From Coleofasciculus chthonoplastes F2-STO-03 (GTDB lineage: Bacteria; Cyanobacteriota; Cyanobacteriia; Cyanobacteriales; Coleofasciculaceae), in assembly GCA_040222015.1 (NCBI GenBank), contig JAVJWO010000046.1:1-64000 (forward strand): a DNA stretch of 64,000 nt. The letters are read 5' to 3'. The position numbers were made by a program, and so were the translations under genes. Positions 27,291 to 43,830 of the stretch are shown here, in pieces (the first letter of the stretch is position 1; the number at the start of each line of letters is the position of its first letter). The notes under the pieces were generated by a model that did not search any database, was not told where the DNA came from, and saw only the letters and a program-made list of their open reading frames with translations.

Positions 27291-27338
27291 ATGCCAGGAG
27301 GCGGACTTGAACCGCCGACACGGGGATTTTCAGTCCCC
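27291..27338 (-). repeat. att site: duplicated 3' part of tRNA-Phe
   Basis: ATGCCAGGAGGCGGACTTGAACCGCCGACACGGGGATTTTCAGTCCCC, identical to 43757-43804. Confidence 0.97.
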
Positions 27339-27430
27339 AACATGACAAGCATAGCATGCAACACGCACTCAAGACAAAACTACATGCCAGGCGTGTATGT
27401 GATAACATCTCATTTTAGTGATAAAATAAC

Positions 27431-27760
27431 ATGCCAGAGCCAACAGTTCCGCAAGTATTCGGTTCAAACGCAAATCAAACAGATTTAATTTTGGAAATTA
27501 AAAAAGCAGATTTAGCAACCGTTGGATTGACCCCAAACGCTAACAATACTGCTGAATCTATGTTTGTGGCTTTACTGCTTTTGAATAGGCAACATTTAAA
27601 TACTGACAATCAAGCAAATGATTCAGATATTCAGATTACAATTCAGGATGGACCGGAAAGCCTAGTGGAGCGGAATGGTACTACGTACCGCCAAAGATTA
27701 TTCTATATTTATTTAGATACCCCAGACTCGCCCGCTACACTTGATCCAAATCAATTCTAA
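27431..27760 (+). CDS. Element hypothetical protein (paralog of the 28527-29003 product)
   Basis: 109 aa, first gene of the coupled operon, GLTPNANNTAES motif. Confidence 0.8.
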   Translation: MPEPTVPQVFGSNANQTDLILEIKKADLATVGLTPNANNTAESMFVALLLLNRQHLNTDNQANDSDIQITIQDGPESLVERNGTTYRQRLFYIYLDTPDSPATLDPNQF

Positions 27761-28527
27761 TGATTGCAACTATTGACCAGAAAAACTTAGTTTCCCTGAC
27801 TCAAGATTTGCTCGTTGACGAAATAAAACTAGCAGCGGCTAAAACTAGCTTGGGAATTCCATTTGATGAGTACACATCGGGAACGGATAAGTACTTAGTA
27901 TTCGAGGTTGTCCAAGACGCCAATGCTGCTTTTGGCAAAATTTACCACCATTGGCAAATACGATTTGACTTACGAATTTATTCTCGCCTCTATTCTGATT
28001 GGGTAGCAGCCAACAAAACCGGACTTGATGACAGCGGTTCTTTTTACCATGACACTCTTAATAATACCGATCCAGTTACACTTTTAACTGTAAATGGGGG
28101 GAGCGAATACCAATTTATTATTTTTTCTCAGGGTAGCATTTTGGTGGTTCTGGGTGGAGTTTACCCAGCAAAAAAACCGGACTGGTGGGATTTATCTAGC
28201 TGGAATTATTATTTTACTCCTGATTACAACGACTATCGACGATTTCGATCAACAGCAAAAAATCCTTTTTCAAATCAATATCATGATGTTTCCTTGAAAA
28301 ATTCCCGAATGGAAACCGCAAATATACACACGGGGCGACGCGATATCCTTCAGGGGATATTATTTTTTACGCAATCGAATCAAGGAATAAGTGGGAAATC
28401 TTCTGATGATTTGGTGAGTTGTTCCGCTGCTGGATCATCCTTAGGGGATGTGATAGAAGTGGTGACGGGGGAACGTTATTTGGTTTTAGACAAAAGTGCT
28501 GGAGGATTGGGAGTTCGTATTGCTTAA
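27760..28527 (+). CDS. Element hypothetical protein, possibly structural
   Basis: 255 aa, aromatic and beta-rich composition, TAATG coupling at both ends. Confidence 0.75.
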   Translation: MIATIDQKNLVSLTQDLLVDEIKLAAAKTSLGIPFDEYTSGTDKYLVFEVVQDANAAFGKIYHHWQIRFDLRIYSRLYSDWVAANKTGLDDSGSFYHDTLNNTDPVTLLTVNGGSEYQFIIFSQGSILVVLGGVYPAKKPDWWDLSSWNYYFTPDYNDYRRFRSTAKNPFSNQYHDVSLKNSRMETANIHTGRRDILQGILFFTQSNQGISGKSSDDLVSCSAAGSSLGDVIEVVTGERYLVLDKSAGGLGVRIA

Positions 28528-29003
28528 TGAATTATACAAGCTCAACTGTTATAAGTGGAAAGCTCAGGCTTATTTCAAGTCTGACCATTAATTCCAGCGT
28601 AAATAGCGGGAAGTATCAAAGTGCCGGAAGGTTAACTGTACAGCTTGCTTTTGTGCAATATGATAGTTTATTTGCCCGTTTATTTGGAATGCAAAGTTGG
28701 CAAGATGGAGACAGTCTATATATTGTAAAATCTGGCTTACCCGGAATAACTCCAGCCGCTAGTAACACGGCTGAATCGTTGCTAGTTTCGTTGTTGATAA
28801 AAGCTTTCTTGGCTGAAAGTAGCGACCTAGGGACATTTTTATTTATAAGCACAGAAGAGGTGAATTTTTTGCAAAGAGCGGGGCGGAAGTGGCGAAGACA
28901 AGCAATCTCAGTGAGGTTCAGAAAAAGGACGGAAGCTATTAATTATAGTTTTCTAGACGCTAGTAAGTTAATCGAGCCAAACGATTATGAGTTATTGCAA
29001 TAA
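28527..29003 (+). CDS. Element hypothetical protein (paralog of the 27431-27760 product)
   Basis: Start reassigned to the ATG in the TAATG overlap (MNYTSS...), GITPAASNTAES motif. Confidence 0.75.
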   Translation: MNYTSSTVISGKLRLISSLTINSSVNSGKYQSAGRLTVQLAFVQYDSLFARLFGMQSWQDGDSLYIVKSGLPGITPAASNTAESLLVSLLIKAFLAESSDLGTFLFISTEEVNFLQRAGRKWRRQAISVRFRKRTEAINYSFLDASKLIEPNDYELLQ

Positions 29004-29607
29004 TAGTGTTAAAGCCTTGGTTACCTATACCTTTAAGGGGGAAAGTAATTCAAAAAAAAGATTTGAAACAAAAAAAACACCAATAGAAGTAGAGGCGGGA
29101 TCTAAGCCAATTCCAGCAGGCGAAAATTATAATGCAGAAGGATTTGAAATTTATTTTTATAGCCCCAATAATAGAAGATGGATACGAAGTATAGTTCAAG
29201 ACTATTTGATTTACCCTATTTCATCCCCTGGACGTTATTCACAGTATAACTATGCAGGTATTGCTATGTGGGGCTGCGGACAAAGTGATTTTCAAAGAGT
29301 TTCAGATGGAACTGTTGTCGGACCTGGAATTGATGTTGACTCTTTACAAATAGACACATCAGTAAAATGTCCTGTACCACCTGTACCAATGGAAAGCATT
29401 TGTCATTTGAAGGTATTGCACCAAGGGATAGTGATTCATCAAGACCAAGGAGAATGCCCGGTTAACTGGACAATTGATTGTGATCCATGCCCACCTAATA
29501 CAATTCGTTGTGTTGAAGGGGGGAAAGTAAGGTGTGTACCGTGTTCTGAGCTTTTAAATCCGCTTAAGCAAATAACATCAAAACTGAAACAGATTAATAA
29601 TGGCTGA
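28987..29607 (+). CDS. Cys-rich element protein
   Basis: 206 aa, C-terminal [19 protein letters not shown]...RCVPCSEL cluster. Confidence 0.75.
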
Positions 29608-31372
29608 TTGTTGTGCAGAATTGAAAAGAGAGATAGCAGCCTTAAAAGGGGAGGTAGCTAAACTTGATGGTAAATTTTTAAAAAAAAGTGAGAGGGGGGG
29701 GATCGTCAAGGACGGCGGAAACTTGGGGAAAAAACTAACCCTCCCACTTGTGGGGGGAATGATCGCGACTCAAGTTAGCCCGGTTAACGCAAAAGCGATC
29801 GCGGCGTTGGAAAAAGCTTTTGCTGCCAGCAGTGCGGCTGGTGCAGCACAAGCAACAGCAGGCAGCGCGTTGGCTAAAATTGGAGCCCTTGTCGCTAAGG
29901 TCGCGGGTTTAGCCGCTGCTATTGCCGGGTTAATCGCTAGTATTGCTGCATTAAAAATTCTTGGCTCTCGAATTGATGCTTTAGAGCGGCGAATTAATTC
30001 CTTAGACTCCGCGATAAGTAAAATTTACAGTTCGATCACGCCAATAAAATCAACGGCTCAACGTGCGTTAGAAACGGCTCGCCAAGCTTTGACCAGGGCA
30101 TTGAAGCCAGGACCTAAAGGTGAGCCGGGGAAAGACGGTAAACCCGGAGTTGATGGTAAACCTGGACCAGCAGGTAAACCTGGACCAGCAGGTACGCCTG
30201 GAAAAGATGGTAAACCTGGATATCCTGGTGAGCCAGGACCAATTGGTAAACCTGGACCAGCAGGTAAACCAGGGGTGGACGGTAAACCTGGACCAGCAGG
30301 AAAAAATGGAAAGGACGGAAAGGACGTGGACGAGAACAGACAAAGGCTAATGGAACAAATGCTTCGGGAAATTCGAGGAAATACAAATTTAATTCCACCA
30401 ATCCCAGCATTAATCAACAAAAATTCTCCATCTGGCGAATTATTTAAGCAGGGCGTGAGTGAAGGCTTTTGTCGAACAACCAAGCCTGGTGGATGTATGA
30501 CCAAAGCATTGAATCCAATCAATAATGGAATTGGGCAAAATGCTAACAAATTGAATGGATTGAATGCTCTGCTTAACGGAGTCCATTTGGGATTCTTAAA
30601 AAGAATCGACAATAAACTTGGCGCACAAATTAAGGGTGGAATTGGCGGGAAGTTAACTAAAATAGGAGAATGGCTGAGAATTCCCCAAGCCTTGAATATT
30701 CTTACTTATATAAATACGCTTGTACAGCTAGCGCATGTAACAAGCGGCTTAGGGCAAATTCTTGGAGAAGCCACAAGTACAGGTCTTGCTGTCCTTGGAT
30801 TCAAAGATGAAAATGGAAGCCAGCTGGACATCAACCAAATTCTTGGTAAACAAGTTTCAGATTTGGCTAGACAAATTCTAGGAAATGATGTCTACGCCGA
30901 CATCTCTACAAAGTGGAAGGCGGCGAACCGTATTTATCAGGCTAGTGCTAATGTTGCAGGAATTGTTACAAATTTAAATAACGATATACTCAATGGCATT
31001 GAGCTTGTCGGTGAGAACACAGGAAAAATTGGGAATTCTTTAAAACGAGCCAGGGTGGTGGCTGAAACGGATTTTAATTGGATGCCGGAACGGGTAAACA
31101 GGGGGACTCTGTTATTTCAGCGGATTGAGAACTTAGATGAAACTGCTAACACTTTGCAGCAAATTTTTCAGGTTCCACTTGATATACAAGAAAGACGCCT
31201 TGAGTTGAGAGAAGCAAATTTAGAATTTGAGAAGACTTTAAAAGAGGAGCTCCCTCGGTTACGCGAAGATAATCAGCCAGTCAAAGAAGCGGTAGAGGCT
31301 GCCAAGACAACTTCTAGAATCGCACTTGACAATATTGGAGAAACTAACACAGAGTCAGGTGATCTTATATAA
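29600..31372 (+). CDS. Collagen-like fibre/spike protein
   Basis: 24 uninterrupted Gly-X-Y triplets (30110-30325), preceded by an Ala-rich hydrophobic helix and coiled coil. Confidence 0.85.
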
Positions 31373-32196
31373 TGGTGTTACCATCAAATTTTTCGCCAGC
31401 AGAACACTTACAGGATTTAATCCGGAAAGTATGGAACAAAAAAGTACGAGAGCATTTTAAGGACCTTGGTGGTGCAGAATGGGAGCCTGACCTTAATTCC
31501 AGTCGAGCGCAGTACAGGGTTGGCTGCACTCATTTAGAAAATGACACGACAGTCATGACTCAGTTGCGAATTGAATTATTAAAGGATATTAAAAGTAGCT
31601 CGGTTGGAAATTATCAATATGTTTTTGGAGTGCCTAAAGACAAGCTTGATGGCGAGGTCGCTTATGTTCCACAGGTAACGCTGTATTTCTGCCAAAAATC
31701 AATAGATGTCGAACCCGGAAAGCATTTTAAAGAAGGGGAAATTACGTTCAGGTGGGTTGAAGAAACAGAAGAATCGATTACATCGGCAAAAATAGAGAAT
31801 TTGGCAAATAAGATTAAATTGAAATTTACCAATCCCACTTATAGGTGGAGTAAGGGGAAAACTTATTATTATTACTATGACAAGCAAAAAGGATATGATT
31901 TTAGGTTGCTGGCGAGAAATATTACAGAAGCCAAACGCATAATTGCAGACACTTTGGATCTGAGAAATGATACTCCCGACTGGAAAAATCACTTGAGATT
32001 TACTGAGGTAGAGAATCCCAGGGAAACTTTTCCGGAGAATGCGGGGACAAAAACAGTCTTGTCAAAATCCAGGAAAAAACCTGTACGGCGTCCAGAGGTT
32101 GACGTTTATTTTCGTTATGCCCTAATCAACATTCCATTGGTCGCAACCATTACGCTTGTCGATCTAACTGGAACCCGTTCTCGTCCAGTTGTTTAA
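31372..32196 (+). CDS. Element hypothetical protein
   Basis: 274 aa, TAATG coupling to the collagen gene. Confidence 0.8.
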   Translation: MVLPSNFSPAEHLQDLIRKVWNKKVREHFKDLGGAEWEPDLNSSRAQYRVGCTHLENDTTVMTQLRIELLKDIKSSSVGNYQYVFGVPKDKLDGEVAYVPQVTLYFCQKSIDVEPGKHFKEGEITFRWVEETEESITSAKIENLANKIKLKFTNPTYRWSKGKTYYYYYDKQKGYDFRLLARNITEAKRIIADTLDLRNDTPDWKNHLRFTEVENPRETFPENAGTKTVLSKSRKKPVRRPEVDVYFRYALINIPLVATITLVDLTGTRSRPVV

Positions 32197-32294
32197 TTGG
32201 GGACAATTTCAATCGGTTCACCATAGTAAACCGACCGCAAAAAACAATAAATTGCGGTGCTATGCTGGAAAAACGACGCACAATTTATTGAATT

Positions 32295-32885
32295 ATGGCA
32301 AGAAGACTATCAAGCTGGATACTTGAACGACGTCTAGAGCAGACTCGTGCCCGCGAACAATATTTGACGAACAAAAACAAGCAAGACGAAACTTTTAACG
32401 GTAATGTTGAAGCTCGACCACTTGTCCGAGTGGGTTACCGGAGTTTATTGCAGCTCATTGGGGCGACTCCAGCACCGGCGATGGTCGCCATTCAAGCGTC
32501 GGAATCAGCTTGCAAATGGTATGAGGGACTTGGCACAACCGGGACGCTGGGAGCTACCCATACAAAGCTTGGCTTAACTTACGGAGATTTAGCGGACTTC
32601 TTAGAAGTTGATAAATTTGACGCCAGTAAGATTATTTCCAAGCTTGGCGGAACCCCCACGGCGGTTCGCACTGCATGGGGATCTAGGTACATTCGATATA
32701 CAAAATCCGGAGAAGGAAATGCAAGGGCTTCGTATACTGCGCCTATCAGCGTTAAAACTGGAGCGGTAACCGTTTCAGCTATAGAGTCCGCAGCTCAAGC
32801 TATAGCAACTGCCGTAGCTACTGATATTGGTAGCAATGGAAGTATTTACTTGGAATTCGAGCAATCTACTAATCGCATTGTTTAA
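32295..32885 (+). CDS. Element protein, candidate major structural protein
   Basis: 196 aa, basic N-terminus, Ala/Gly/Thr-rich, preceded by the only sizeable gap in the operon; function is inference only. Confidence 0.7.
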   Translation: MARRLSSWILERRLEQTRAREQYLTNKNKQDETFNGNVEARPLVRVGYRSLLQLIGATPAPAMVAIQASESACKWYEGLGTTGTLGATHTKLGLTYGDLADFLEVDKFDASKIISKLGGTPTAVRTAWGSRYIRYTKSGEGNARASYTAPISVKTGAVTVSAIESAAQAIATAVATDIGSNGSIYLEFEQSTNRIV

Positions 32886-33115
32886 TGATCGAAATTGATC
32901 CAATTCACAAGCTAATTAGCATTCCTGCTATTTGGGTTCCTGACCCAGATGTACAAATGCAGGAAATTGTCAATATGATTGAGCGATCAAGGGTCGCTCA
33001 ATCATTCCTTAGAGGGGAAATTTCCTTCGATGACTACTTGTGCTTTCTTGCAGAACAAGGATTTGACCCGTTGGAATTTTATGCTATTTGGAATGCTGGA
33101 GGGACGTTTCTATGA
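32885..33115 (+). CDS. Small acidic element protein
   Basis: 76 aa, TAATG and ATGA coupling on both sides. Confidence 0.7.
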   Translation: MIEIDPIHKLISIPAIWVPDPDVQMQEIVNMIERSRVAQSFLRGEISFDDYLCFLAEQGFDPLEFYAIWNAGGTFL

Positions 33116-33636
33116 CTTTGCAGATTAATGTTACTGGTAGTGGCCAATGGGTTCTTGCTTACACAACAGCTAAGCAAGCGCCAGAAGACAGAGTTAAGTT
33201 TCGTAGTCGATATAAGCGACTAATAGATCCATTTGATATCCCTGTAACCTTTGCAAGCCATATAATTGCTATCGGAACAAGATACTTGAAAGCCCCAGCG
33301 ACATGGTACAATGCGGGGCAATTAATTCAGCTCGCAACTGGGGCAACAATTAATGATCCAGATGCTTGGGATGCTGGGTACACAGGAACAGAGCCAATTA
33401 TTGTTAGTCGAAAAAATGTCCGGCTAAATCAATCCTTGGAAATATTTTTCATGCAGCCTGTAGGTTCTGAACTGCAAATCGGTTTCAATCCGCGTCCGTG
33501 GATACCTGAATTCTCTATGGGAATCTATGAATTCATGGGTACTACCCTGGATACTACGGAAGAACTGATAGAAGCGGCTAGGGCGCAATTGACAACTATA
33601 GAAGCAAAAGTTGATGTTATTAATAGCAAGATATAA
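33112..33636 (+). CDS. Element hypothetical protein
   Basis: Start reassigned to the ATGA overlap (MTLQINV...), C-terminal short coiled coil. Confidence 0.75.
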   Translation: MTLQINVTGSGQWVLAYTTAKQAPEDRVKFRSRYKRLIDPFDIPVTFASHIIAIGTRYLKAPATWYNAGQLIQLATGATINDPDAWDAGYTGTEPIIVSRKNVRLNQSLEIFFMQPVGSELQIGFNPRPWIPEFSMGIYEFMGTTLDTTEELIEAARAQLTTIEAKVDVINSKI

Positions 33637-34371: not shown

Positions 34372-34373
34372 AC

Positions 34374-34766: not shown

Positions 34767-34768
34767 CA

Positions 34769-35655: not shown

Positions 35656-35752
35656 ATTAAAAATCGCTAAACTTTGCTCACTATAATTTGAAAGTGACAG
35701 GAGTTCAGCGATCGCAGTACAACTGAAGTATGACCCAAATCAGTGTACTGCC

Positions 35753-36037: not shown

Positions 36038-36045
36038 GGCATGAC

Positions 36046-37231: not shown

Positions 37232-37247
37232 ATTTAATTCTTTGTAT

Positions 37248-37478
37248 TTAAAAAGGTATTTCATCGTACCAATGTGCAGATCTTGAATTCCAGCACGGAG
37301 ATAACATATCCTTGGGAATTTTTGTCGCACACATAAACATTAGGACGACATTCAGGATAATTCGGCACTGGAACGGCAATCTTTTCCAGCGTGTCTCTTT
37401 CAGCACTGCGGGGCAAGGATATTTTAGGTCGTAGGCGAGAGTTCGCCAGAAGGAATAGTTGTGGTCAAAATTGTTCAT
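37248..37478 (-). CDS. Small hypothetical protein
   Basis: Fills the gap in the leftward operon, GGAGG upstream of MNNFDH. Confidence 0.45.
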   Translation of the reverse strand: MNNFDHNYSFWRTLAYDLKYPCPAVLKETRWKRLPFQCRIILNVVLMFMCATKIPKDMLSPCWNSRSAHWYDEIPF

Positions 37479-37480
37479 TT

Positions 37481-37819
37481 TCATTTTGCCTCCAATTTCG
37501 CGATCAGTGCGTCTGCCATCCAAACTGCTTCAGCAGGGCTAAGGCGATGCGCTCCAGTGGCCAATAAGCTCTGGAGCGCGATCGCGGCGAACTGTTCTCG
37601 TTTGGTTAGGTTTTCGCTAAATCCTTTGAGTACGGACTGAAAGGTGGACTCATGCAAAATTTCCGCATCTATGCCGTCTGCATCCAACAAAATCTCCTCA
37701 CAGCCGACGACCATTCGGATGAATCGGGTATCGCCGGCGCCTTCTCTATAGTCCCAATCAATTAGATCTATGCTCGCCAATCTAACTGTGTGAGTTGAAA
37801 AATTAATGAAGTCGTTCAT
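37481..37819 (-). CDS. Phage-type hypothetical protein
   Basis: C-terminal LTKREQFAAIALQSLL...AVWMADALIAKL motif common in small phage proteins; ATGA coupling to the XRE gene. Confidence 0.72.
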   Translation of the reverse strand: MNDFINFSTHTVRLASIDLIDWDYREGAGDTRFIRMVVGCEEILLDADGIDAEILHESTFQSVLKGFSENLTKREQFAAIALQSLLATGAHRLSPAEAVWMADALIAKLEAK

Positions 37820-38067
37820 TTTGGTGGGTCTGGTAAATCGTCAATCGTCATCCCGACCCTTGCCATGAGCTGGTGCAACTTCTTGTACTGCCAAAGTTCT
37901 AGGCGCAAACGGTGGCGCCCTTTTTCGTGGTTTCGCACCGTTTGTTCAGTGACGCCTATAAATTCTCCTAGTTGAGGCTGAGTCCATCCCAGCCGTTTTC
38001 GCAGTACTAGCAAAGTTTTTCCAGTGGGGTTGCAAGGTGAAAGGTTTTCATTTACCATTTTAGACAT
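37816..38067 (-). CDS. XRE-family HTH transcriptional regulator
   Basis: LRKRLGWTQPQLGEFIGVTEQTVRNHEKG; start at the ATG at 38067 or 38058. Confidence 0.88.
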   Translation of the reverse strand: MSKMVNENLSPCNPTGKTLLVLRKRLGWTQPQLGEFIGVTEQTVRNHEKGRHRLRLELWQYKKLHQLMARVGMTIDDLPDPPK

Positions 38068-38068
38068 A

Positions 38069-38089
38069 AACCGAAAAAGTTTTTCGGTT
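38069..38089. promoter_or_regulatory. Candidate operator palindrome
   Basis: AACCGAAAAA-G-TTTTTCGGTT perfect 10-1-10 inverted repeat immediately upstream of the XRE gene. Confidence 0.6.
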
Positions 38090-38396
38090 ATTACAAACCA
38101 CAAGCGCAAGAAAGGAGCTCAATGGCATGGGCACTCCTCTCTTGCGCCCTATAGGATACCGCGTTCTAGGTTCCGGTGAGACGCGATCGCAATAACTTGA
38201 AATGTGTTGAGGTATACAAAATGAAATGAGCGCATCACCCGAAAGCAGGTGAGACTAACTTGGATCTACTGACAACATTGGTTAATGCTCCTTTCTGTTT
38301 CTGACCACTACCTATCGGTGCTTATGACTAAAACACTCGCCCGATAGCTGGCGATACCATGCTCCTCATTGAATGGATGAAATTGTAAAGCCGAAC

Positions 38397-38436
38397 AAAA
38401 AACGGGGGTGGCAGTTTCCTCCCACCCCCGTTTTTT
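38397..38436. terminator. Bidirectional intrinsic terminator-like hairpin
   Basis: AAAAAACGGGGGTGG-10 nt-CCACCCCCGTTTTTT. Confidence 0.75.
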
Positions 38437-38450
38437 ATTTGAGGAAAATA

Positions 38451-38855
38451 ATGGAGAATTTAGAGGAATTTTTTAGGCACGATCAAAAGCTACATGGAGA
38501 AAAAGACGCCCACTTGCCACTCAGGAGGATATTTCATTGGAGGTTGGAAACTCCGAAGGCGTCTAAAGCCTTGATAGATTTACGATATTTTGGTTCGCGA
38601 GCTGTAATCGTTGCTTACAGCCAGCCCGGATATTTTAAGTTTAGTGAAGATTTCCTGTATGCATTTGATCGGTTATGCGGGGACTTTGGACTAGAATCAC
38701 ACAACACAGCCTGTTTCGAGTGGTTTCTGCACAAAGCGGACTTTAATATTTCTTCGGCTAAATACATGCAGTTTCGGCTGACTGCGAACATGGTAACCAG
38801 AGAAATTTTAGAGATAAATGATTTCCGCAGATTTCTAGAGCAACTATCGGAGTAG
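38451..38855 (+). CDS. Element hypothetical protein
   Basis: Start reassigned to MENLEEF, after GAGG RBS and downstream of the hairpin. Confidence 0.65.
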   Translation: MENLEEFFRHDQKLHGEKDAHLPLRRIFHWRLETPKASKALIDLRYFGSRAVIVAYSQPGYFKFSEDFLYAFDRLCGDFGLESHNTACFEWFLHKADFNISSAKYMQFRLTANMVTREILEINDFRRFLEQLSE

Positions 38856-38858
38856 CCA

Positions 38859-39176
38859 ATGGAAGAGAATTTTAAGGAAATAGTTCAATTGGCTATTTTG
38901 GCTTACTGGGCGACACATTCGCGAACAATAAATGATTATTCCGTGCAGCACGCACGGGAAAATGCGAAGATAATCAGCCAAAAATGCTCTCCCTTGTTCA
39001 GCGAGGCGAATGATGGTTACCCAAATGATGGTTGGGAGGGCTGGACCGTTTTTGCTTTGTTATGTGGGGGATTTTGCGCCTTTCGGGGACTCCCGTCTCA
39101 AAGCGAGCTTGAGTCGCTCCTAGATAAAGCAATTTCAATTTTCAATAGAGTTGAAAGCCAAAAACACGAACAATAA
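38859..39176 (+). CDS. Element hypothetical protein
   Basis: 105 aa, GGAG RBS, in the rightward operon. Confidence 0.65.
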   Translation: MEENFKEIVQLAILAYWATHSRTINDYSVQHARENAKIISQKCSPLFSEANDGYPNDGWEGWTVFALLCGGFCAFRGLPSQSELESLLDKAISIFNRVESQKHEQ

Positions 39177-39194
39177 AAAAGGGGCATAGCCCCT

Positions 39195-42100
39195 ATGAGT
39201 ATCATGTCAGAAAGAGTGATTAAAAATTCTCAACTTGACCATTATCTTAGCACACTTCCACCCCAAAATCTAGAGGCAGAAGAATCAGTATTGGGGGGAA
39301 TATTGCTCGACGAAAACGCAATGGCGCGAGTAGTCGAAACATTAACCCCAGAGGCGTTTTACATCAGCGCCCACCAAGAAATCTACCGGGCAGCATTAAC
39401 CCTATACAAACAGGGGGGGCTGACGGATTTCATGACCGTAACCGATTGGTTGTATGCACATAAACTACTGGATAAAATTGGCGGCCAAAACAAGATAGCA
39501 CAGCTTATCGATCGCACAGTTTCAGCCGTCAACATTGACCGTCACGCGGCGCTGGTGATGGATAAGTACCTACGCCGTCAACTCATCCAAGCGGGCAATG
39601 AGATTGCTTCGGTATTTGGGGATACTTTTAACCCAACAGATAAAGCCGTAGAGATAGCCCGAAATAAACTAGAAAACCTTATTCCCTTTTCAGAAAGTCG
39701 AAAGGAACGCGAATACAACAGCCTGATGGAGAAGGCTGAAAAAATAATTCTTTATGAAGACAACCCAGGAAAGCGTTTATGGGACTTACAGGGATTAGCT
39801 AAAAGACATGGCTTATCAGCACAAAAACTGGAAGAAATTTACTACAAGCACCTGCTTCACAAAGACTCTACACCGAGTATGACTTGGGATGAGTTAATCA
39901 AGCATGAATCAGATTCACCCGATTGGGTATATCACGGTTTTATGTTACGCGGCAGTTTGACACTTCTCTATTCAGCTCCTGGCGTGGGGAAAACGCTATT
40001 TTTCTACTTTTTGGCATTCTGTGCGGCAGCAGGAGTCAGCTGGGAGACAAAGATAGGGCAGTTCAGCGCAACTGCAAAACGCCGACGAATTCTATTTGTA
40101 CAATGTGACGAAACACGCCCGGAGATGATAAGAAGCCTAAGAAGATTAGGGTTCGATGCAACTCTGCAATGTCAATACCTGACGGACTGGAACGTAAATG
40201 AGATACCTAAACTAATAAGAGAGATTCAGTCTTTCAAGCCCGACGCAATTATTATCGACAGTCTAAGCTCCGTTGGCGACTGGACAGTAGAGGAAAATAA
40301 CACTAGATTTGCTGTTCCAGTTAATATGCTGCGTCGGCTAGCAGGTTTATTCAACTGCTGGATAGGGCTTACTCATCATGCTAATGCTGAAGGTGGGCTG
40401 AGAGGAACAACTGCTATAGCTGCGTCAGCCTCCACTGTTATCAAAATGGAGCGCATACAAGGACAGCCCCTGAGTTCTTCGCAACGAAAACTCATTTTCC
40501 AGAAGAATCGAGCTGGAACACCTTGGAGCGCTCATTGTCAAGTTAATTTTGAGACGGGCGGGTGGCAAATTTTGGAAGGGGTTGAAGGAACTGGAATTGA
40601 AACAGTAGGAGTACAGGGTAAAATATACTCCTTTCTTAAGGAGAACTCTCCCAAACGATACGAAACCAGGGAGATGGCGGAAATCTTGGCGCAAGCACAG
40701 CCCAGCATTCGTAGGGCGTGCAATCAATTATCGGGTCTTGGTTTGATTTCTAAGGTTCAACTGAATCGCAAATGTCTGTACTTCGTTCAAAGAGATGAGG
40801 ATGAGTGGGATGATGCCTCCCCAGACCCAGGAGGCGATCATGGCGATCATGTCGATCCTGAAGCGATCACGGGGGATGGATCGCATCCAAACTCTTTCCA
40901 GCAGGGAGATTCAGCTAGTAGCGATCATGCGATCGCCCAAAATCAAAAATCAGATGAGCAATTTGAAGATGAAAAAATCGATGATCGGTTGATCGCTTCC
41001 GCTGAAACCACGCTAAATCAGGAAGTTGAATGCGATCCTGCTAGGGTGATCGCTTCAGGATCGCTTCAGGATCGGATCGCGATCGAGAACTATCGGGGGC
41101 TAACTATCAAGCAGCCCCATGCTCAAAGATTTTCCCAAGGTCTGAAGCGGTACGAAGTGAGATCGCGGAAAACGAATTACCGAGGATTAATCCTTATTCA
41201 TTCGTCCAAGGAATATGAAAAAGGATTCGGGATGGATCGGACGCTGGCAGAGGTCGAGTATCCAACGGGAAAAATTTTGGCAGTTGCCGAACTGACCGAT
41301 TGCATCGAAATTACAGAATCTTTCCTGAACGAACAACCAGAAGAGGAGTTATTCGGCGGGTACTGGCAGCTAGGGCAGTGGGCATGGAAATTGGAGAATA
41401 TTCGCCCCGTCCATCCTTACCCTGGTGCAGCGGGTAACTTTATGCTCTGGACGCCACAGATAGATCACTTAGAGGGAGTGGAGATTGGCGATCGAGTGGA
41501 TGTGAATAATGACTCATACGTAGTTCCAGAAATTGTCGGGCTTATTCAGGAGCTTTTAGAAGTCGAAGGGGGAAAGCCATGGGTTACCCTTAGGAACATC
41601 AAGGGATTAAGCAAAAGGCAGCGCAATGAGATCCTTCGCCGCTTGTTGGTGACTGGGCGTGGATATCGCATAATTTGGGATGGGAACAATCCCGACTGGG
41701 GGGTAATTGATCCGGCGCTAATTAAGCGAAAAGAATTGATAGATTTGCGCTCTCCATCGAAGTCATCAAAGAGTGTGTATGCTTTTTGTCAAGGTGAAGA
41801 CGGCTCGACAGAATATTTTGATGTATTCGATGAGTTCTTTTTCCAGGACGATCGCCGCGAAATCCCCAAGCTTTCCGATCGCGAAAAGGCGGAAGCCAAG
41901 CAGAAGGCTTTTGAGAAAGTAATGAAAGCTTTGGGCGAACATGAAGGACCTGGCGCTGAACCCGTAACCGATGATGAAGCTCCTGGCGTTGAACCCGTAA
42001 CCGATGATGAAGCCCCTGGCGTTGAACCCGTAACCGATGATGAAGCCCCTGGCGTTGAACCCGTAACCGATGATGAAGCCTCTGGCGTTGAACCCGTAAC

Positions 42101-42467
42101 CACACCAGATCCAGATATATTTGACCAGATTCAGGTAGGCGATCGCTTGATTTCAAACAATGGTGCTACCTGTATTTGCATCAAGAAAAAGCTCAATCCA
42201 AAACAAATTACAGTCAGGTGGGGCGGGGGGTCCGTAACTGAATTGGATGATGTTTTCATTGAAATCATGCGATTGCAGATTAAAACCCGCCTAAGACCTG
42301 GGCTGCGTGTACGTTATCAACATTGGCATGGACGTTTGAGTTCCAAGCTAAAAAATAATAAATGGTATGTAAACTGGGAGGGATTTTTCGACCAAGGATT
42401 ACGCAAAAAATACGGGGAACCGCCCAAGAGCGCGATCGCACCCCAGGACTTTGAGGTAGTCGAATGA
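39195..42467 (+). CDS. Replication protein: DnaB N-terminal domain, AAA_25/RepA-type helicase, wHTH, ASCH, repeats
   Basis: LPPQNLEAEESVLGGILLD DnaB-N; Walker A SAPGVGKT; Walker B AIIIDSL; HHAN..LRGTTA; ASCH LTIKQP..G.KRYEVRS..TNYRG.ILIH. Confidence 0.85.
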   Translation: MSIMSERVIKNSQLDHYLSTLPPQNLEAEESVLGGILLDENAMARVVETLTPEAFYISAHQEIYRAALTLYKQGGLTDFMTVTDWLYAHKLLDKIGGQNKIAQLIDRTVSAVNIDRHAALVMDKYLRRQLIQAGNEIASVFGDTFNPTDKAVEIARNKLENLIPFSESRKEREYNSLMEKAEKIILYEDNPGKRLWDLQGLAKRHGLSAQKLEEIYYKHLLHKDSTPSMTWDELIKHESDSPDWVYHGFMLRGSLTLLYSAPGVGKTLFFYFLAFCAAAGVSWETKIGQFSATAKRRRILFVQCDETRPEMIRSLRRLGFDATLQCQYLTDWNVNEIPKLIREIQSFKPDAIIIDSLSSVGDWTVEENNTRFAVPVNMLRRLAGLFNCWIGLTHHANAEGGLRGTTAIAASASTVIKMERIQGQPLSSSQRKLIFQKNRAGTPWSAHCQVNFETGGWQILEGVEGTGIETVGVQGKIYSFLKENSPKRYETREMAEILAQAQPSIRRACNQLSGLGLISKVQLNRKCLYFVQRDEDEWDDASPDPGGDHGDHVDPEAITGDGSHPNSFQQGDSASSDHAIAQNQKSDEQFEDEKIDDRLIASAETTLNQEVECDPARVIASGSLQDRIAIENYRGLTIKQPHAQRFSQGLKRYEVRSRKTNYRGLILIHSSKEYEKGFGMDRTLAEVEYPTGKILAVAELTDCIEITESFLNEQPEEELFGGYWQLGQWAWKLENIRPVHPYPGAAGNFMLWTPQIDHLEGVEIGDRVDVNNDSYVVPEIVGLIQELLEVEGGKPWVTLRNIKGLSKRQRNEILRRLLVTGRGYRIIWDGNNPDWGVIDPALIKRKELIDLRSPSKSSKSVYAFCQGEDGSTEYFDVFDEFFFQDDRREIPKLSDREKAEAKQKAFEKVMKALGEHEGPGAEPVTDDEAPGVEPVTDDEAPGVEPVTDDEAPGVEPVTDDEASGVEPVTTPDPDIFDQIQVGDRLISNNGATCICIKKKLNPKQITVRWGGGSVTELDDVFIEIMRLQIKTRLRPGLRVRYQHWHGRLSSKLKNNKWYVNWEGFFDQGLRKKYGEPPKSAIAPQDFEVVE
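41941..42101 (+). repeat. 33-bp in-frame tandem repeat, about five copies (EAPGVEPVTDD)
   Basis: CCTGGCGTTGAACCCGTAACCGATGATGAAGCC repeated inside the replication gene. Confidence 0.93.
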
Positions 42468-43543
42468 GCCGCCGCAACAAGGGAACCGTAGCCATCGAAT
42501 CCGTAAAGGGGCGGTTACGGCTGCGGCTTCCCCGATTTTGCCCCATAAGATATCTATCTCTCAATCTCTCTGACACCGCCCGAAACCGAAAAATAGCTTC
42601 GGCTAAAGCCGGACAAATAGAGTCAGACATCATATTTGAACGGTTTGATATTACGCTCAATCGATATAGAAATCCTTTACAGCTACCCAAGGGTAAAACT
42701 CCACTCTTAGAAATTTGGGATGCTTACGTTCAAACGCGGGTGCAGGTAATCAGTCAGACTACGCTCAATACTGACTATAAACGAGTACGTGATCGATTAA
42801 TCGCTTACCCTACCACCTTAGATAAAACCGTAATTTTTAAAAACTGGCTGACCAAAAACTACAAGCTGGGAAGCGTGAGGCGAATCTTGAGCCAACTTCG
42901 ATCGGCGTGTGAGTGGGCTGTGGAAGAAGGCTTAATCGAATCCAATCCGTTTAAGCAGCTTCCCAAGGCTCAAGTTAGTACATCCGCGCCGGACCCATTC
43001 ACAAAAGAGGAGCGAGACTTAATTATTCGAGGATTTGCGGAAAGTTTCTACTATAAGCATTACACCCCATTTGTGAAGTTTCTGTTCTGGACAGGGTGTC
43101 GAACATCTGAAGCGATCGGGCTTCAGTGGCGACACATCGATCAAGAGCAAAAATTCATAACTTTTGAAGAGGCGCTGGTAAATGGAGTTCGCAAAGACAC
43201 AAAAACTCATAAGCCCCGACGTTTTCCGACAAACCAAGCTATTCGCAATTTACTTGAGGACAGGCAGCCGGAGCCGCCAGATTTCAGGCGATTGGTCTTT
43301 CGATCAAAGCGGGGATTAGCTATAGACTCCCACAATTTCCTGAATCGGGCATGGCGATCGGTGTTGGGGGGATTACCCATCAGATACCGAAAGCAGTATT
43401 GCACCAGGGCGACCTTTATCACTCTTTGCCTTGAAGAAGGCGTCCCAGTAGCACAGGTTGCCGCTTGGGTGGGAAATTCGCCTAAAACTATCTGGCAGCA
43501 TTACGCCGGAATCGTAAGCGCGATCGCAGTGCCAGAACCATAA
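42464..43543 (+). CDS. Tyrosine recombinase/integrase with N-terminal arm-binding domain
   Basis: GRLRLRLP N-terminal domain, TGCRTSE, TKT, YCTRATF, VGNS, HYAG; ATGA coupling to the replication gene. Confidence 0.93.
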   Translation: MSRRNKGTVAIESVKGRLRLRLPRFCPIRYLSLNLSDTARNRKIASAKAGQIESDIIFERFDITLNRYRNPLQLPKGKTPLLEIWDAYVQTRVQVISQTTLNTDYKRVRDRLIAYPTTLDKTVIFKNWLTKNYKLGSVRRILSQLRSACEWAVEEGLIESNPFKQLPKAQVSTSAPDPFTKEERDLIIRGFAESFYYKHYTPFVKFLFWTGCRTSEAIGLQWRHIDQEQKFITFEEALVNGVRKDTKTHKPRRFPTNQAIRNLLEDRQPEPPDFRRLVFRSKRGLAIDSHNFLNRAWRSVLGGLPIRYRKQYCTRATFITLCLEEGVPVAQVAAWVGNSPKTIWQHYAGIVSAIAVPEP

Positions 43544-43705
43544 GCGATCGCCATTCGAGTGCCGGAAAAATTTGCCTAAAGCTACTCGATCTAGCTAGGC
43601 GGTGGGATGCAGAGCCTGACCCAGAGGACAAATAATATCCAAACCATATCCATTTTGGGCAAAAACCTTAAAAATATTTTCAAAACCACGAATAGTACAT
43701 AAACA

Positions 43706-43744
43706 CTAAAAGACGCTACACACTCGCAGTGCAGCGTCTTTTAG
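43706..43744 (-). terminator. Hairpin downstream of tRNA-Phe (inside the element)
   Basis: CTAAAAGACGCT...AGCGTCTTTTAG 12-bp inverted repeat. Confidence 0.7.
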
Positions 43745-43757
43745 GTGGTATACTTGA

Positions 43758-43830
43758 TGCCAGGAGGCGGACTTGAACCGCCGACACGGGGATTTTCAGT
43801 CCCCTGCTCTACCGACTGAGCTATCCCGGC
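43758..43830 (-). tRNA. trnF: tRNA-Phe (GAA)
   Basis: Reverse complement GCCGGGATAGCTCAGTCGGTAGAGCAGGGGACTGAAAATCCCCGTGTCGGCGGTTCAAGTCCGCCTCCTGGCA folds into a cloverleaf with anticodon GAA; CCA not encoded. Confidence 0.97.

What the first reader, a model, noticed from the sequence alone, without database searches (positions are those of the whole stretch)
27291..43804. Intact-looking 16.5-kb tRNA-Phe-integrated element with virion-like genes but no recognisable packaging or capsid hallmark genes
Seen: a perfect 48-bp att duplication, an intact integrase, a replication gene, an XRE switch, and about 13 co-oriented genes mostly joined by TAATG/ATGA overlaps, including a collagen fibre and a tail-fibre-like tip. 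No obvious frameshifted remnants. I find no terminase, portal, HK97 capsid, tape measure, Zot/FtsK/A32 packaging ATPase or conjugation genes, and the only Walker A motif I can see is in the replication protein. Inference: too small and too different for a tailed prophage, and not a typical inovirus or PICI. It is a candidate new family of small temperate cyanobacterial virus (tailless or membrane-containing), or a satellite carrying its own adsorption module.
Basis: partly seen in the sequence, partly recalled or inferred. Interest (0 to 1): 0.93.

Follow-up and report, generated by a model that had tools for sequence, protein, structure and literature searches.

The report
New cyanobacterial virus-like integrated element family
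A 16.5-kb mobile element sits in a tRNA gene of a filamentous cyanobacterium and belongs to a large, undescribed family that looks like a small temperate virus but has none of the known capsid or DNA-packaging genes.

Summary
A perfect 48-bp repeat (27291-27338 / 43757-43804) made from the 3' part of tRNA-Phe brackets a 16,466-bp insertion. Five of seven same-genus genomes examined have the intact tRNA directly against the left flank. The element carries an integrase, a DnaB-N/AAA_25/ASCH replication protein, an XRE regulator, TIR and DUF5131 cargo, and a tight 13-gene operon.

The operon core (g1-g9) has no Pfam, PHROG, NCBIfam or PDB match. It is nevertheless syntenic in many cyanobacteria: g6 is found in 68 of 301 genomes of the order. 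Relatives are 8-15 kb, use other tRNA sites, swap integrase and replication modules, and sometimes add endolysins and receptor-binding-like proteins. One relative is a 10,255-bp circular metagenome contig; others lie on plasmids. CRISPR spacers target this element, including one in the host's own genome.

AlphaFold models of the two most widespread core proteins (g6, g7) are confident but show no HK97 or jelly-roll fold.

Best reading (about 0.5): a new lineage of small non-tailed temperate viruses with unrecognised virion proteins. The rivals are a satellite or a non-viral element. No particle, excision or expression data exist.

The parts
27291..27338 (.). attL: 48-bp copy of the 3' part of tRNA-Phe
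   Evidence: 100% identical direct repeat. Empty sites in same-genus genomes end exactly here.
27431..27760 (+). g1, 109 aa; small core protein, paralogous to the C-terminal half of g3
   Evidence: BLASTP g1 vs g3 E 5e-7. The g1/g3 family gave 19 ORF matches, the window's own included, among the window and 32 loci. No Pfam, PHROG or NCBIfam hit.
27760..28527 (+). g2, 255 aa; facultative module protein
   Evidence: Homologues lie at the same position in L030, L046, L062 and L048. No family hit.
28527..29003 (+). g3, 158 aa; second member of the g1 family
28987..29607 (+). g4, 206 aa; Cys-rich C-terminus
   Evidence: Family of 14 ORF matches. No family hit.
29600..31372 (+). g5, 590 aa; long fibrous protein. 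It has an N-terminal coiled coil with a hydrophobic Ala/Gly-rich segment (res. 90-123), a collagen rod (res. about 170-245) and a conserved helical C-terminal domain.
   Evidence: Pfam Collagen 7.5e-15. A hydrophobic segment is present in 19 of 31 homologues. Both ends are conserved and the middle is variable and repetitive.
31372..32196 (+). g6, 274 aa; the most conserved core protein. It has an N-terminal three-helix part and a 2H-phosphoesterase-like alpha/beta domain without catalytic His.
   Evidence: AF2 pLDDT 85.6. VIA Z 5.3 and 5.0 to 2H enzymes. BFVD hits to an RNA ligase and an HXTX phosphoesterase. No conserved His. Found in 68 of 301 genomes and 692 clusters. dN/dS 0.11.
32234..32258 (+). 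Hairpin (ACCGCAA...TTGCGGT) in the 98-nt g6-g7 spacer
   Evidence: Read from the sequence. A spacer of about 100 nt with a local palindrome recurs in relatives, but its sequence is not conserved.
32295..32885 (+). g7, 196 aa; basic N-terminal helix plus an alpha+beta domain with no structural match; highly variable
   Evidence: AF2 pLDDT 82.4, pTM 0.71. Foldseek best E 0.64. VIA best Z 2.9. 28 ORF matches. Mean column identity 24%.
32885..33115 (+). g8, 76 aa; small acidic core protein
   Evidence: 21 ORF matches. It co-varies with g7 as a cassette.
33112..33636 (+). g9, 174 aa; core protein with conserved Trp residues and a C-terminal coiled coil
   Evidence: 31 ORF matches. 56 homologues, all named ones cyanobacterial 'hypothetical'. 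dN/dS 0.21. Not folded.
33637..34371 (+). g10, 244 aa; occupies the variable slot that holds receptor-binding-like proteins in relatives
   Evidence: Weak PHROG hits. The same slot holds a tail-fibre-like protein in L015, a collagen protein in L050 and a beta-helix protein in L147.
34374..34766 (+). g11, 130 aa; FHA-domain protein
   Evidence: Pfam FHA 1.2e-10. FHA proteins occur at the same position in L029 and L147.
34769..35408 (+). g12 (N-terminal transmembrane segment plus coiled coil) and g13; possible lysis or exit genes
   Evidence: TM segment 1-21. By position they correspond to the lysis genes of relatives. No hydrolase domain was found here.
35392..36037 (.). g14 (minus strand) and g15 (plus strand); small basic proteins with one N-terminal transmembrane segment
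   Evidence: Homologues lie next to elements L026, L040 and L044. A spacer in G315 matches 35748-35778.
36046..37330 (-). Cargo: TIR-domain protein with a C-terminal TM segment, and a DUF5131 protein
   Evidence: TIR_2 2.2e-26 and DUF5131 4.8e-101. PADLOC candidate systems PDC-M41B/M30B 3e-109 and ThsB-like TIR.
37481..38109 (-). g18 and the XRE-type regulator; g18 carries the protospacer 37597-37631
   Evidence: HTH_31 5.8e-7. An own-genome CRISPR spacer matches 35 of 36 nt with no mismatch.
38373..39176 (+). g20 and g21; early genes of unknown function, divergent from the regulator
   Evidence: ORFs. No family hit.
39195..42467 (+). Replication protein, 1090 aa: DnaB N-terminal domain, AAA_25 ATPase, ASCH, and an acidic 11-residue repeat
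   Evidence: Pfam. PHROG DnaB-like helicase 7.4e-34. 33-bp repeats at 41936-42100.
42464..43543 (+). Tyrosine integrase, 359 aa
   Evidence: PHROG integrase 2.9e-44. Pfam 5.1e-9. Spacers of G300 and of the own genome match this gene.
43757..43830 (-). attR (43757-43804) within the intact tRNA-Phe(gaa) (43758-43830)

Best explanation
The insertion is an intact temperate mobile element of a large family, undescribed in the searches made, that is found so far only in cyanobacteria. It is most likely a small non-tailed virus.

Shown:
- It integrated by tyrosine-recombinase crossover in the 3' 48 bp of tRNA-Phe.
- Same-genus relatives have the empty site.
- CRISPR systems of its own host and of two congeners hold spacers against it.
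- Its 13-gene operon contains a core (g1, g4-g9) that is syntenic across many cyanobacterial genera. This core is combined with different integrases, replication proteins and tRNA targets.
- A relative exists as a 10.3-kb circle.

Inferred:
- The XRE regulator holds the element silent.
- On induction the integrase excises a 16.5-kb circle, and the DnaB-N/AAA_25 protein replicates it.
- The g1-g13 operon then builds particles. g6 is the main building block: it is universal, the most conserved, and under purifying selection. Its fold is 2H-like without catalytic residues, so it may bind nucleic acid.
- g7-g8 form a variable, exchangeable surface cassette.
- g5 is a long coiled-coil/collagen fibre with a hydrophobic segment, for adsorption or DNA delivery.
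- g9 and the variable slot after it (g10) act in receptor binding.
- Exit is by lysis. Relatives show this with endolysin plus a membrane-anchored coiled-coil protein. In this element only the membrane proteins g12, g14 and g15 are visible.
- No packaging ATPase exists, so the genome would be enclosed by co-assembly rather than pumped.
- TIR and DUF5131 are cargo that may protect the lysogen.
For: Boundaries and mobility:
- Perfect att repeat at a tRNA and empty sites in same-genus genomes.
- Relatives are flanked by repeats derived from tRNA-Lys (9,931 bp), tRNA-Phe (13,306 bp), tRNA-Ser (14,538 bp) and tRNA-Leu (14,499 bp).
- GC is 39-43% in g1-g13 against about 49% in the flanks.

Family:
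- g6 is found in 68 of 301 genomes of the order and 43 of 119 genera.
- It falls in 692 clusters at 50% identity at E<=1e-3.
- Of 50 loci in the species collection, 46 carry cyanobacterial names and 4 are labelled 'uncultured bacterium'.
- Among the window and 32 loci chosen by their g6 hit, ORF matches (window's own included) were: g5 32, g9 31, g7 28, g8 21, g1/g3 19, g4 14, g2 6.
- dN/dS is 0.11 for g6 and 0.21 for g9 between two copies in one genome.

Virus-like traits:
- Peptidoglycan hydrolases lie just after the core in 8 of 32 loci: Peptidase_M15 in L019 and L029; Phage_lysozyme in L020, L021, L036, L038, L041 and L042. L018 has a C39-like peptidase. The L042 lysozyme hits PHROG endolysin at 4e-61.
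- In 7 loci a protein with an N-terminal TM segment and a coiled coil lies beside the hydrolase gene.
- Receptor-binding-like proteins fill the variable slots: collagen, tail-fibre or minor-tail PHROGs, a 'virion structural protein' PHROG at 3.5e-8, a right-handed beta-helix, and a weak discoidin match.
- Replication modules are exchanged: DnaB-N/AAA_25, VapE-like, SF3-like, D5-like.

Extrachromosomal forms:
- Contig L052 has an exact 123-bp terminal overlap, giving a 10,255-bp circle. The 728-aa g5 ORF runs across the junction.
- The module is also on plasmids pHT582-1 and pHT582-2.

CRISPR:
- An own-genome spacer matches 35 of 36 nt with no mismatch at 37597-37631, and the next spacer matches 31 of 36 nt in the integrase gene.
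- Spacers of G300 and G315 also match the element.
Against: - No capsid fold was recognised. The g6 and g7 models are confident but match neither HK97 nor jelly-roll proteins. g9, g1-g4 and g5 were not folded.
- No packaging ATPase, portal, or any P-loop domain exists outside the replication protein.
- No g6 or g2 relative was found in IMG/VR by three pattern-limited scans. No g6 relative was found in 50,697 phage records by tblastn. So no member is known from a virion or from a set of predicted viruses.
- Plasmid pHT582-2 keeps g5-g6 with ParA/ParB but lacks detectable g8 and g9. This fits a plasmid-compatible, non-virion role as well.
- This element itself has no recognisable endolysin.
- g7 is far more variable than a typical major capsid protein.
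- CRISPR targeting and circles fit plasmids as well as viruses.
Confidence: 0.5

Rival explanations
1. A non-viral integrative, plasmid-like element. The g1-g9 block would serve another purpose, such as a surface fibre, a cell-cell transfer device or a maintenance function. Spread would be by an unrecognised route or by hitch-hiking in vesicles.
For: No capsid or packaging homologue or fold was found. g5-g6 sit on a ParA/ParB plasmid without g8 or g9. The full module lies inside a 37-kb plasmid. No g2/g6 relative was found in IMG/VR, nor a g6 relative in phage records.
Against: Endolysins with a membrane-anchored partner follow the module in 8 of 32 loci. Variable slots are filled with phage-fibre-like, beta-helix and collagen proteins. 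There are no conjugation, relaxase or secretion ATPase genes. In the smallest members (about 8-10 kb) the block is most of the element, so it should be what moves the element.
Confidence: 0.23
2. A phage satellite. It would integrate, excise and replicate on its own but be packaged in the capsid of a helper cyanophage. The g1-g9 block would supply adsorption or tail-tip parts and capsid-redirecting factors.
For: The size (8-16 kb), the integrase, regulator and replication layout, and the lack of capsid, portal and terminase are what satellites show. The recognisable virion-like parts are all fibre or receptor-binding-like.
Against: No small terminase, capsid-size or helper-interference gene was recognised. 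Some members carry their own lysis genes. A 6-8 kb conserved block of nine or more genes is much more than known satellites spend on hijacking (known-satellite gene content is recalled, not tested here). No helper was identified.
Confidence: 0.17
3. A very diverged member of a known non-tailed phage lineage, such as a jelly-roll virus. Its capsid protein would be one of the unfolded proteins (g9, g2, g4), and the packaging ATPase would have been lost or replaced.
For: g9 is universal and about the size of single jelly-roll proteins, but it was not folded. Its nearest language-model neighbours are three unnamed viral clusters at scores of 0.81-0.82, a range that shuffled proteins also reach.
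Against: No sequence match to any capsid family was found. There is no FtsK/HerA-type ATPase. The only universal proteins long enough for a double jelly roll are g5 and g6. The g6 model has no jelly roll: its best matches are helical chains and 2H phosphoesterases.
Confidence: 0.08
4. A decayed remnant of a tailed prophage that kept only its integrase, replication and fibre genes.
For: Collagen and fibre-like PHROG hits.
Against: The att repeat is perfect and there are no frameshifted ORFs. The same compact architecture is conserved in 43 of 119 genera with purifying selection. Complete members of 9.9-14.5 kb are bounded by att repeats, and a 10.3-kb circle exists.
Confidence: 0.02

Closest known systems
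PM2-like (corticovirus-type) prophages and other small tailless temperate phages of aquatic bacteria
   Same: Genome of about 10-16 kb, temperate and integrated, with a compact co-oriented structural operon, exchangeable replication and integration modules, and lysis genes in some members. The properties of the known group are recalled, not tested.
   Different: No double jelly-roll capsid protein or FtsK/HerA-type packaging ATPase was detected by sequence. The two folded universal proteins are not jelly rolls.
Phage-inducible chromosomal islands and other phage satellites
   Same: Size, tRNA or site-specific integration, an integrase-regulator-replication layout, lack of capsid and terminase genes, and defence cargo.
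   Different: It has a conserved 6-8 kb block of nine ORFan genes, its own endolysins in relatives, and no recognisable packaging-hijack genes. Helper dependence is untested.
Plasmaviridae (Acholeplasma phage L2) and pleomorphic capsid-less viruses
   Same: A small temperate DNA element with an integrase and no recognisable capsid or packaging genes (L2 properties are recalled).
   Different: The host here is a Gram-negative-type cyanobacterium. Relatives carry endolysins, which implies lysis rather than budding. tblastn of g6 against 50,697 phage records found nothing; no other protein was tried.
Charybdis elements (bioRxiv 10.1101/2025.08.03.668216; abstract and outline seen)
   Same: A widespread family of circular or integrating elements with a conserved putative structural module, variable receptor-binding-like proteins, and no virus, plasmid or transposon hallmark genes.
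   Different: Charybdis elements are about 4.6 kb, marine and linked to archaea. No sequence relation was tested or is expected. The resemblance is one of kind, not of family.
Tycheposons of marine picocyanobacteria (recalled, not tested)
   Same: Cyanobacterial elements that integrate at tRNA genes by tyrosine recombinases and carry replication modules and cargo.
   Different: The g1-g9 block is not a feature I recall of tycheposons. No comparison was run.

Membership tests
tRNA-integrating tyrosine-recombinase element | Direct repeat formed by the 3' part of a tRNA gene, bracketing the element | tested here: met
   A 48-nt perfect repeat, with one copy inside tRNA-Phe.
tRNA-integrating tyrosine-recombinase element | Tyrosine integrase next to one end | tested here: met
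   A 359-aa ORF at 42464-43543. PHROG integrase 2.9e-44; Pfam Phage_integrase 5.1e-9.
tRNA-integrating tyrosine-recombinase element | Empty site in related genomes | tested here: met
   In 4 of 7 same-genus genomes examined, left flank, tRNA and right flank are contiguous. One more shows the intact tRNA against the left flank.
Tailed phages (Caudoviricetes) | Large terminase and portal | tested here: not met
   No hit in Pfam, PHROGs or NCBIfam for 23 window proteins, nor in PHROGs for 71 ORFs of four complete relatives.
Tailed phages (Caudoviricetes) | HK97-fold major capsid protein | tested here: inconclusive
   The g6 and g7 models gave no capsid match. The other core proteins were not folded.
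Small tailless jelly-roll phages (Corticoviridae, Autolykiviridae, Tectiviridae) | [quoted passage not shown] | tested here: inconclusive
   No sequence hit. The g6 and g7 models are not jelly rolls. g9, g2 and g4 were not folded.
Small tailless jelly-roll phages (Corticoviridae, Autolykiviridae, Tectiviridae) | FtsK/HerA-type (A32-like) packaging ATPase | tested here: not met
   The only ATPase domain is AAA_25 in the replication protein. No strict Walker A occurs in any of the six frames. The loose motif in g2 is not conserved.
Filamentous phages (Inoviridae and relatives) | Zot/pI-type morphogenesis ATPase and a rolling-circle (HUH) initiator | tested here: not met
   No such family in Pfam, PHROGs or NCBIfam.
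Phage satellites (PICI-type) | Integrase, regulator and own replication module in an island of about 10-15 kb | tested here: met
Phage satellites (PICI-type) | Genes that redirect helper packaging (small terminase, capsid-size factors) and dependence on a helper | not testable with these tools
   No such gene was recognised, but these genes are often ORFans. Helper dependence needs an experiment.
2H phosphoesterase / LigT superfamily (g6 C-terminal domain) | Two-lobed alpha/beta fold | tested here: inconclusive
   VIA gave Z 5.3 (2d4g, 123 aligned, rmsd 6.4) and Z 5.0 (5v1m, 114 aligned, rmsd 4.3), within the noise range named by the tool. BFVD gave an unnamed protein at E 2.1e-4, an RNA ligase at 5.6e-3 and an HXTX phosphoesterase at 0.079.
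2H phosphoesterase / LigT superfamily (g6 C-terminal domain) | Two catalytic H-x-T/S motifs | tested here: not met
   No invariant or nearly invariant His among 51 sequences.

The most novel reading that the evidence does not exclude
The family is a new, realm-level lineage of bacterial viruses. It would be temperate and confined to cyanobacteria. Its 8-16 kb genomes would be enclosed without a packaging ATPase, in particles built from proteins with folds never seen in capsids: g6, an inactivated 2H-phosphoesterase-like protein, and/or g7, an alpha+beta fold with no structural neighbour. The particles would be armed with a long coiled-coil/collagen fibre.
Probability: 0.3. Interest if true: 0.95.

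Novelty: categorically new. Interest (0 to 1): 0.82.

Why it matters
Temperate viruses of filamentous and benthic cyanobacteria are barely known, and current virus-finding pipelines depend on hallmark genes. This family was found in about a quarter of the sampled genomes of a major cyanobacterial order. It is targeted by CRISPR and carries defence cargo. Yet no relative of its g6 or g2 proteins was found in the collection of predicted viruses (IMG/VR), nor of g6 in 50,697 phage records.

If the family makes particles, it adds a new capsid architecture and an ATPase-free way of enclosing a 10-16 kb genome. It would also give bloom- and mat-forming cyanobacteria a previously uncounted class of lysogens.

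If it does not make particles, the conserved nine-gene block is an unknown machine of a very successful mobile element.

Either way it can be tested directly, because culturable strains carry members (for example Leptolyngbya boryana NIES-2135, Calothrix parasitica NIES-267, Calothrix sp. PCC 7716, Leptolyngbya sp. PCC 7375).

Tried and rejected
- **Complex prediction of g6 with g7**: no verdict; it says nothing either way.
- **Public sequencing runs** for 27291-37290: none was listed and no RNA holder was listed, so excision and expression could not be examined.
- **IMG/VR scans** with g6, g2 and a 12-sequence g6 alignment: no relative. These scans depend on short exact peptide patterns. The 51-sequence alignment was too diverse for the tool (error), so a smaller one was made.
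- **ESM Atlas**: no structure is held for g7 or g9. g7 had no usable hit. g9 had only low-score viral clusters (0.81-0.82), which the tool says shuffled proteins also reach.
- **PDB sequence-profile searches** for g6, g7, g9, g5, g10 and g2: only chance-level or coiled-coil hits.
- **hhalign of the g5 profile** against the two roughly 520-aa proteins of the second lineage: no relation.
- **Promoter and terminator scans**: not above the shuffled expectation (39 vs 30.8±5.5; 19 vs 17.1±4.2).
- **Circularity test on nine further whole contigs**: no terminal overlap. L033 has a 171-bp terminal repeat at 161/171 identity. I leave it unexplained: it could be att-like or a mixed population.
- **Own-genome CRISPR arrays against all fetched family loci**: only the one spacer against this element; none against relatives' g1-g9 blocks.
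- **Earlier notes of this scan**: nothing to show.
- **Literature**: four full-text searches listed no description of this family. I saw only listings, apart from passages of PMC13626063 and the abstract and outline of 10.1101/2025.08.03.668216. No supplements were read.
- **Rejected idea, g5 as a tape measure with g6-g9 as a siphophage tail tip**: the g6 and g7 models resemble no solved tail protein, and no tube, chaperone or hub family was hit.
- **Rejected idea, g2 as a hidden ATPase**: its GISGKS string is not conserved.

Full report
**1. The observation**

ARAGORN finds one tRNA in the window, tRNA-Phe(gaa) at 43758-43830 on the minus strand. A 48-nt direct repeat, 100% identical, lies at 27291-27338 and 43757-43804, 16,466 bp apart. 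The right copy is the 3' part of the tRNA.

Between the copies lie 23 ORFs that I treat as genes. Thirteen co-oriented ones (27431-35408) are joined by:
- four 1-nt TAATG overlaps
- one ATGA overlap
- overlaps of 8, 17 and 95 nt
- three gaps of 0-2 nt
- a single 98-nt spacer between g6 and g7

The boundaries were checked independently. The 1.3 kb left of attL is present in all 8 other genomes of the genus. I examined loci of 7 of them; the 1.7-kb contig L142 was left out. The results:
- In 4 genomes, left flank, intact tRNA-Phe and right flank are contiguous.
- In 1, the intact tRNA follows the left flank up to the end of the locus.
- In 1 (G201), a different element occupies the site.
- In 1, the locus did not reach the junction.

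GC is 39-43% across g1-g13 against about 49% in the flanks. The insertion is therefore real, precisely bounded and foreign.

**2. What is recognisable**

Pfam, PHROGs, NCBIfam and PADLOC identify:
- a tyrosine integrase
- a 1090-aa replication protein (DnaB N-terminal domain, AAA_25, ASCH)
- an XRE-type regulator divergent from two small early genes
- an FHA protein (g11)
- a collagen stretch in g5
- a cargo pair on the other strand: a TIR protein with a C-terminal membrane segment, and a DUF5131 protein that matches the PADLOC candidate systems PDC-M41B/M30B at 3e-109

Thirteen of the 23 proteins have no Pfam family even at E 0.1, among them g1-g4 and g6-g10. No terminase, portal, capsid, tape measure, Zot/FtsK/A32 ATPase, relaxase or secretion family is hit.

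The strict Walker A pattern occurs in none of the six frames. The replication protein has APGVGKT in its AAA_25 domain. A loose match in g2 is not conserved in 8 homologues.

**3. The element belongs to a large family**

The 274-aa g6 was searched in 301 genomes of the host's order. It is found in 68 of them, in 43 of 119 genera, often more than once per genome.

Other searches with g6:
- A profile of 51 g6 sequences finds 692 clusters (50% identity) at E<=1e-3 and 404 at E<=1e-30 among 1.84 billion representatives.
- A word-indexed search gave 47 proteins. Every one that carries a name is called 'hypothetical'. The closest named one comes from Coleofasciculus sp. G2-EDA-02 (88% identity), which suggests the host genus.
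- In the one-genome-per-species collection, 50 loci were confirmed. 46 carry cyanobacterial names (Nodosilinea, Leptolyngbya, Nostoc, Calothrix, Anabaena, Pseudanabaena, Chamaesiphon and others) and 4 are 'uncultured bacterium'. That scan used one peptide pattern, so the range may be wider.

**4. Synteny**

I fetched 32 loci around g6 hits, called ORFs and built family HMMs by iteration. The loci were chosen by their g6 hit, so its presence there is by construction.

ORF matches, the window's own included, were:

| Family | ORF matches |
|---|---|
| g5 | 32 |
| g9 | 31 |
| g7 | 28 |
| integrase | 26 |
| g8 | 21 |
| g1/g3 | 19 |
| g4 | 14 |
| g2 | 6 |
| replication protein | 6 |

The order g1-(g2-g3)-g4-g5-g6-[about 100-nt spacer]-g7-g8-g9 is kept. 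g1 and g3 are paralogues.

Between two copies in one genome, dN/dS is 0.11 for g6 and 0.21 for g9. Most other pairs are saturated at synonymous sites. g7-g8 behave as an exchangeable cassette.

Most relatives are smaller than this element. att-like repeats derived from tRNAs bound elements of 9,931 bp (tRNA-Lys), 13,306 bp (tRNA-Phe; the closest architecture to ours), 14,538 bp (tRNA-Ser) and 14,499 bp (tRNA-Leu).

The core is combined with several other modules:
- a 194-aa or a roughly 470-aa integrase
- DnaB-N/AAA_25, VapE-like, SF3-like or D5-like replication proteins
- a DdrB-like single-strand-binding protein

**5. Virus-like traits in relatives**

- Just downstream of g9, 8 of 32 loci have a peptidoglycan hydrolase: Peptidase_M15 in 2 and Phage_lysozyme in 6. 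One more has a C39-like peptidase.
- The L042 lysozyme hits PHROG endolysin at 4e-61.
- In 7 loci a protein with an N-terminal membrane segment and a coiled coil lies beside the hydrolase gene.
- The slot after g9 and the slot between g1 and g4 hold variable proteins with fibre or receptor-binding character. These include collagen, minor-tail or tail-fibre PHROGs (1e-7), a 'virion structural protein' PHROG (3.5e-8; phrog_10080 at 2.4e-20), a right-handed beta-helix, and a weak discoidin match.
- An FHA protein follows that slot in this element, in L029 and in L147.
- Across 71 ORFs of four complete members (9.9, 13.3 and 14.5 kb, and the circle), PHROGs recognise only integrase, helicase/primase, endolysin, that one structural-like protein and a few families of unknown function.

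**6. Free forms**

A metagenome contig of 10,378 bp (L052) has an exact 123-bp terminal overlap, that is, a 10,255-bp circle. The 728-aa g5 gene runs across the ends of the linear contig, so the circle is not an integrated copy.

In PLSDB, two circular plasmids of Nostocales HT-58-2 carry the module:
- The 37-kb plasmid holds a complete g1-g9 set next to a small integrase.
- The 15.6-kb plasmid holds g5-g6 with ParA/ParB, an integrase and a 1690-aa ORF, but no detectable g8 or g9.

tblastn of g6 against 50,697 phage records found nothing. Three pattern-based scans of IMG/VR found no relative of g6 or g2.

**7. CRISPR**

A DNA search of the family's genomes with the element returned short perfect hits. 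All lie inside CRISPR arrays.
- In the host's own genome (contig C216), a 36-nt spacer matches 35 nt without mismatch at 37597-37631, inside g18.
- The neighbouring spacer matches 31 of 36 nt at 42524-42559, in the integrase gene.
- A spacer of G300 matches 29 of 33 nt at 43073-43101.
- A spacer of G315 matches 30 of 31 aligned nt at 35748-35778.

Of 22 array-like regions in the own genome, only this one holds a match to the element or to the fetched relatives. The lineage has therefore met this element as an invader, and the lysogen carries a self-targeting spacer. No claim here rests on the unpublished genome G304 that one search flagged.

**8. Structures**

g6 (alignment of 51 sequences) folds with mean pLDDT 85.6. 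It has three N-terminal helices, a disordered linker and an alpha/beta domain at residues 100-266.
- Foldseek against the PDB gives nothing at E<=1e-3.
- The Foldseek-independent search gives helical noise for the N-terminus (best Z 6.0). For the C-domain it gives two 2H phosphoesterases: 2d4g (Z 5.3, rmsd 6.4, 123 aligned) and 5v1m (Z 5.0, rmsd 4.3, 114 aligned). Both are within the range the tool calls common.
- BFVD gives an unnamed viral protein (E 2.1e-4, TM 0.36), a phage RNA ligase (5.6e-3) and an HXTX phosphoesterase (0.079).
- Taken together this suggests a 2H-like fold. No His is conserved among the 51 sequences, so it is not an active member.

g7 (alignment of 28 sequences) folds with pLDDT 82.4 and pTM 0.71. 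It has a basic N-terminal helix and an alpha+beta domain. It has no neighbour at all: Foldseek best E 0.64 and VIA best Z 2.9.

Neither model is a jelly roll or an HK97 fold.

**9. Reading**

The following points fit a virus morphogenesis and adsorption module better than anything else:
- The block is conserved while replication and integration modules are exchanged.
- It fills most of the smallest members.
- It is accompanied by lysis genes and fibre or receptor-binding-like proteins.
- It occurs in a free circle.
- It is targeted by CRISPR.

I put that reading at 0.5.

Against it:
- No capsid fold and no packaging ATPase were found.
- No relative was found in the virus collections with the proteins searched (g6, g2).
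- g5-g6 sit on a ParAB plasmid.
- There are no particle, excision or expression data.

The rivals are a non-viral plasmid-like element (0.23), a satellite (0.17), a very diverged member of a known jelly-roll lineage (0.08) and a prophage remnant (0.02).

**10. Comparison and novelty**

The element works like a small temperate tailless phage or a satellite. It fails the testable defining features of tailed phages (terminase, portal), of jelly-roll tailless phages (packaging ATPase) and of inoviruses (Zot-type ATPase, HUH initiator).

Four full-text searches listed no description of the family. The nearest thing in print that I saw is of the same kind, not the same family: the 4.6-kb archaeal 'Charybdis elements', which also lack hallmarks (abstract). 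Statements about PM2-like prophages, Acholeplasma phage L2, satellites and tycheposons come from recall.

Whatever the block does, it is a conserved machine of unknown kind in a very successful element. I therefore rate the finding categorically new, with the caveat that one unfolded protein could still turn out to be a diverged jelly roll.

Noticed in passing
G000 contig C216:87468-87502 (locus L083:1469-1504); target at window 37597-37631: The host's own CRISPR array (37-nt repeat GTTTCAATCCCTAGTAGGGATTATAGAGGATTTTGAC) holds a spacer identical over 35 of 36 nt to g18 of the integrated element. The next spacer matches the integrase gene at 31 of 36 nt. This self-targeting is tolerated by unknown means.
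   Followed up: yes
window 25474-25881: Just left of the element there is a run of 9-bp units (CTCCC[CT]C[AT]G type, about 25 units, 25558-25782), preceded by 7-nt AGGCAAT/AGGGAAT units (25505-25560). ORFs are open on the minus strand across it.
   Followed up: no
window 41936-42100: Four to five 33-bp repeats inside the replication gene encode an acidic repeat (EPVTDDEAPGV) between the ASCH region and the C-terminal part.
   Followed up: no
window 36543-37234; G000 contig C149:16745-17436: The DUF5131 cargo gene has a second copy in the same genome at 92% DNA identity. Copies at 89-90% occur in six other genomes of the genus, so the gene moves between the element and the chromosome or other elements.
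   Followed up: partly
window 39258-39606: The DnaB N-terminal part of the replication gene is 66-78% identical at DNA level to a locus present in most genomes of the family. That locus is presumably the host dnaB; this was not checked.
   Followed up: no
L147 (G201:C160), L148, L149, L150: A second, related lineage exists. A protein of about 507-524 aa carries the g6 C-terminal domain behind an extra 320 residues. It is preceded by a roughly 500-aa ORFan in place of g5 and followed by a g9-like protein. In G201 this lineage occupies the same tRNA-Phe site and carries a beta-helix protein followed by an FHA protein.
   Followed up: partly
L042:1115-1169, 5084-5138, 9111-9165, 12533-12587; L032 six sites: Relatives carry element-specific palindromic motifs (e.g. 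ACGTGACAC...GTGTCACGT) repeated at the borders of gene blocks. They may be operators or terminators. No such repeated motif was seen in the window's element.
   Followed up: no
L020 vs L021 (two copies in genome G126): g6 and g9 are close (dN 0.07 and 0.13), but g7, g8, g1 and g4 are almost unrelated (dN 0.7-1.1). g7-g8 of L020 resemble those of L042, and those of L021 resemble L038. This indicates cassette exchange inside the module.
   Followed up: partly
L033 (whole contig G276:C38, 10,665 bp): The first and last 171 bp are direct repeats at 161/171 identity, with the mismatches clustered at positions 99-119. It could be a circle assembled from a mixed population or an att-flanked copy; this is unresolved.
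   Followed up: partly
L046:10133-11450: In genome G230 a Cas2 gene and an 11-repeat CRISPR array lie directly downstream of the element's module.
   Followed up: no
window 32197-32294 and the same spacer in relatives: The only sizeable gap in the operon (98 nt between g6 and g7) recurs in nearly all relatives. It holds a local hairpin in each, but the sequence is not conserved. It may set different expression levels for the genes on either side.
   Followed up: partly
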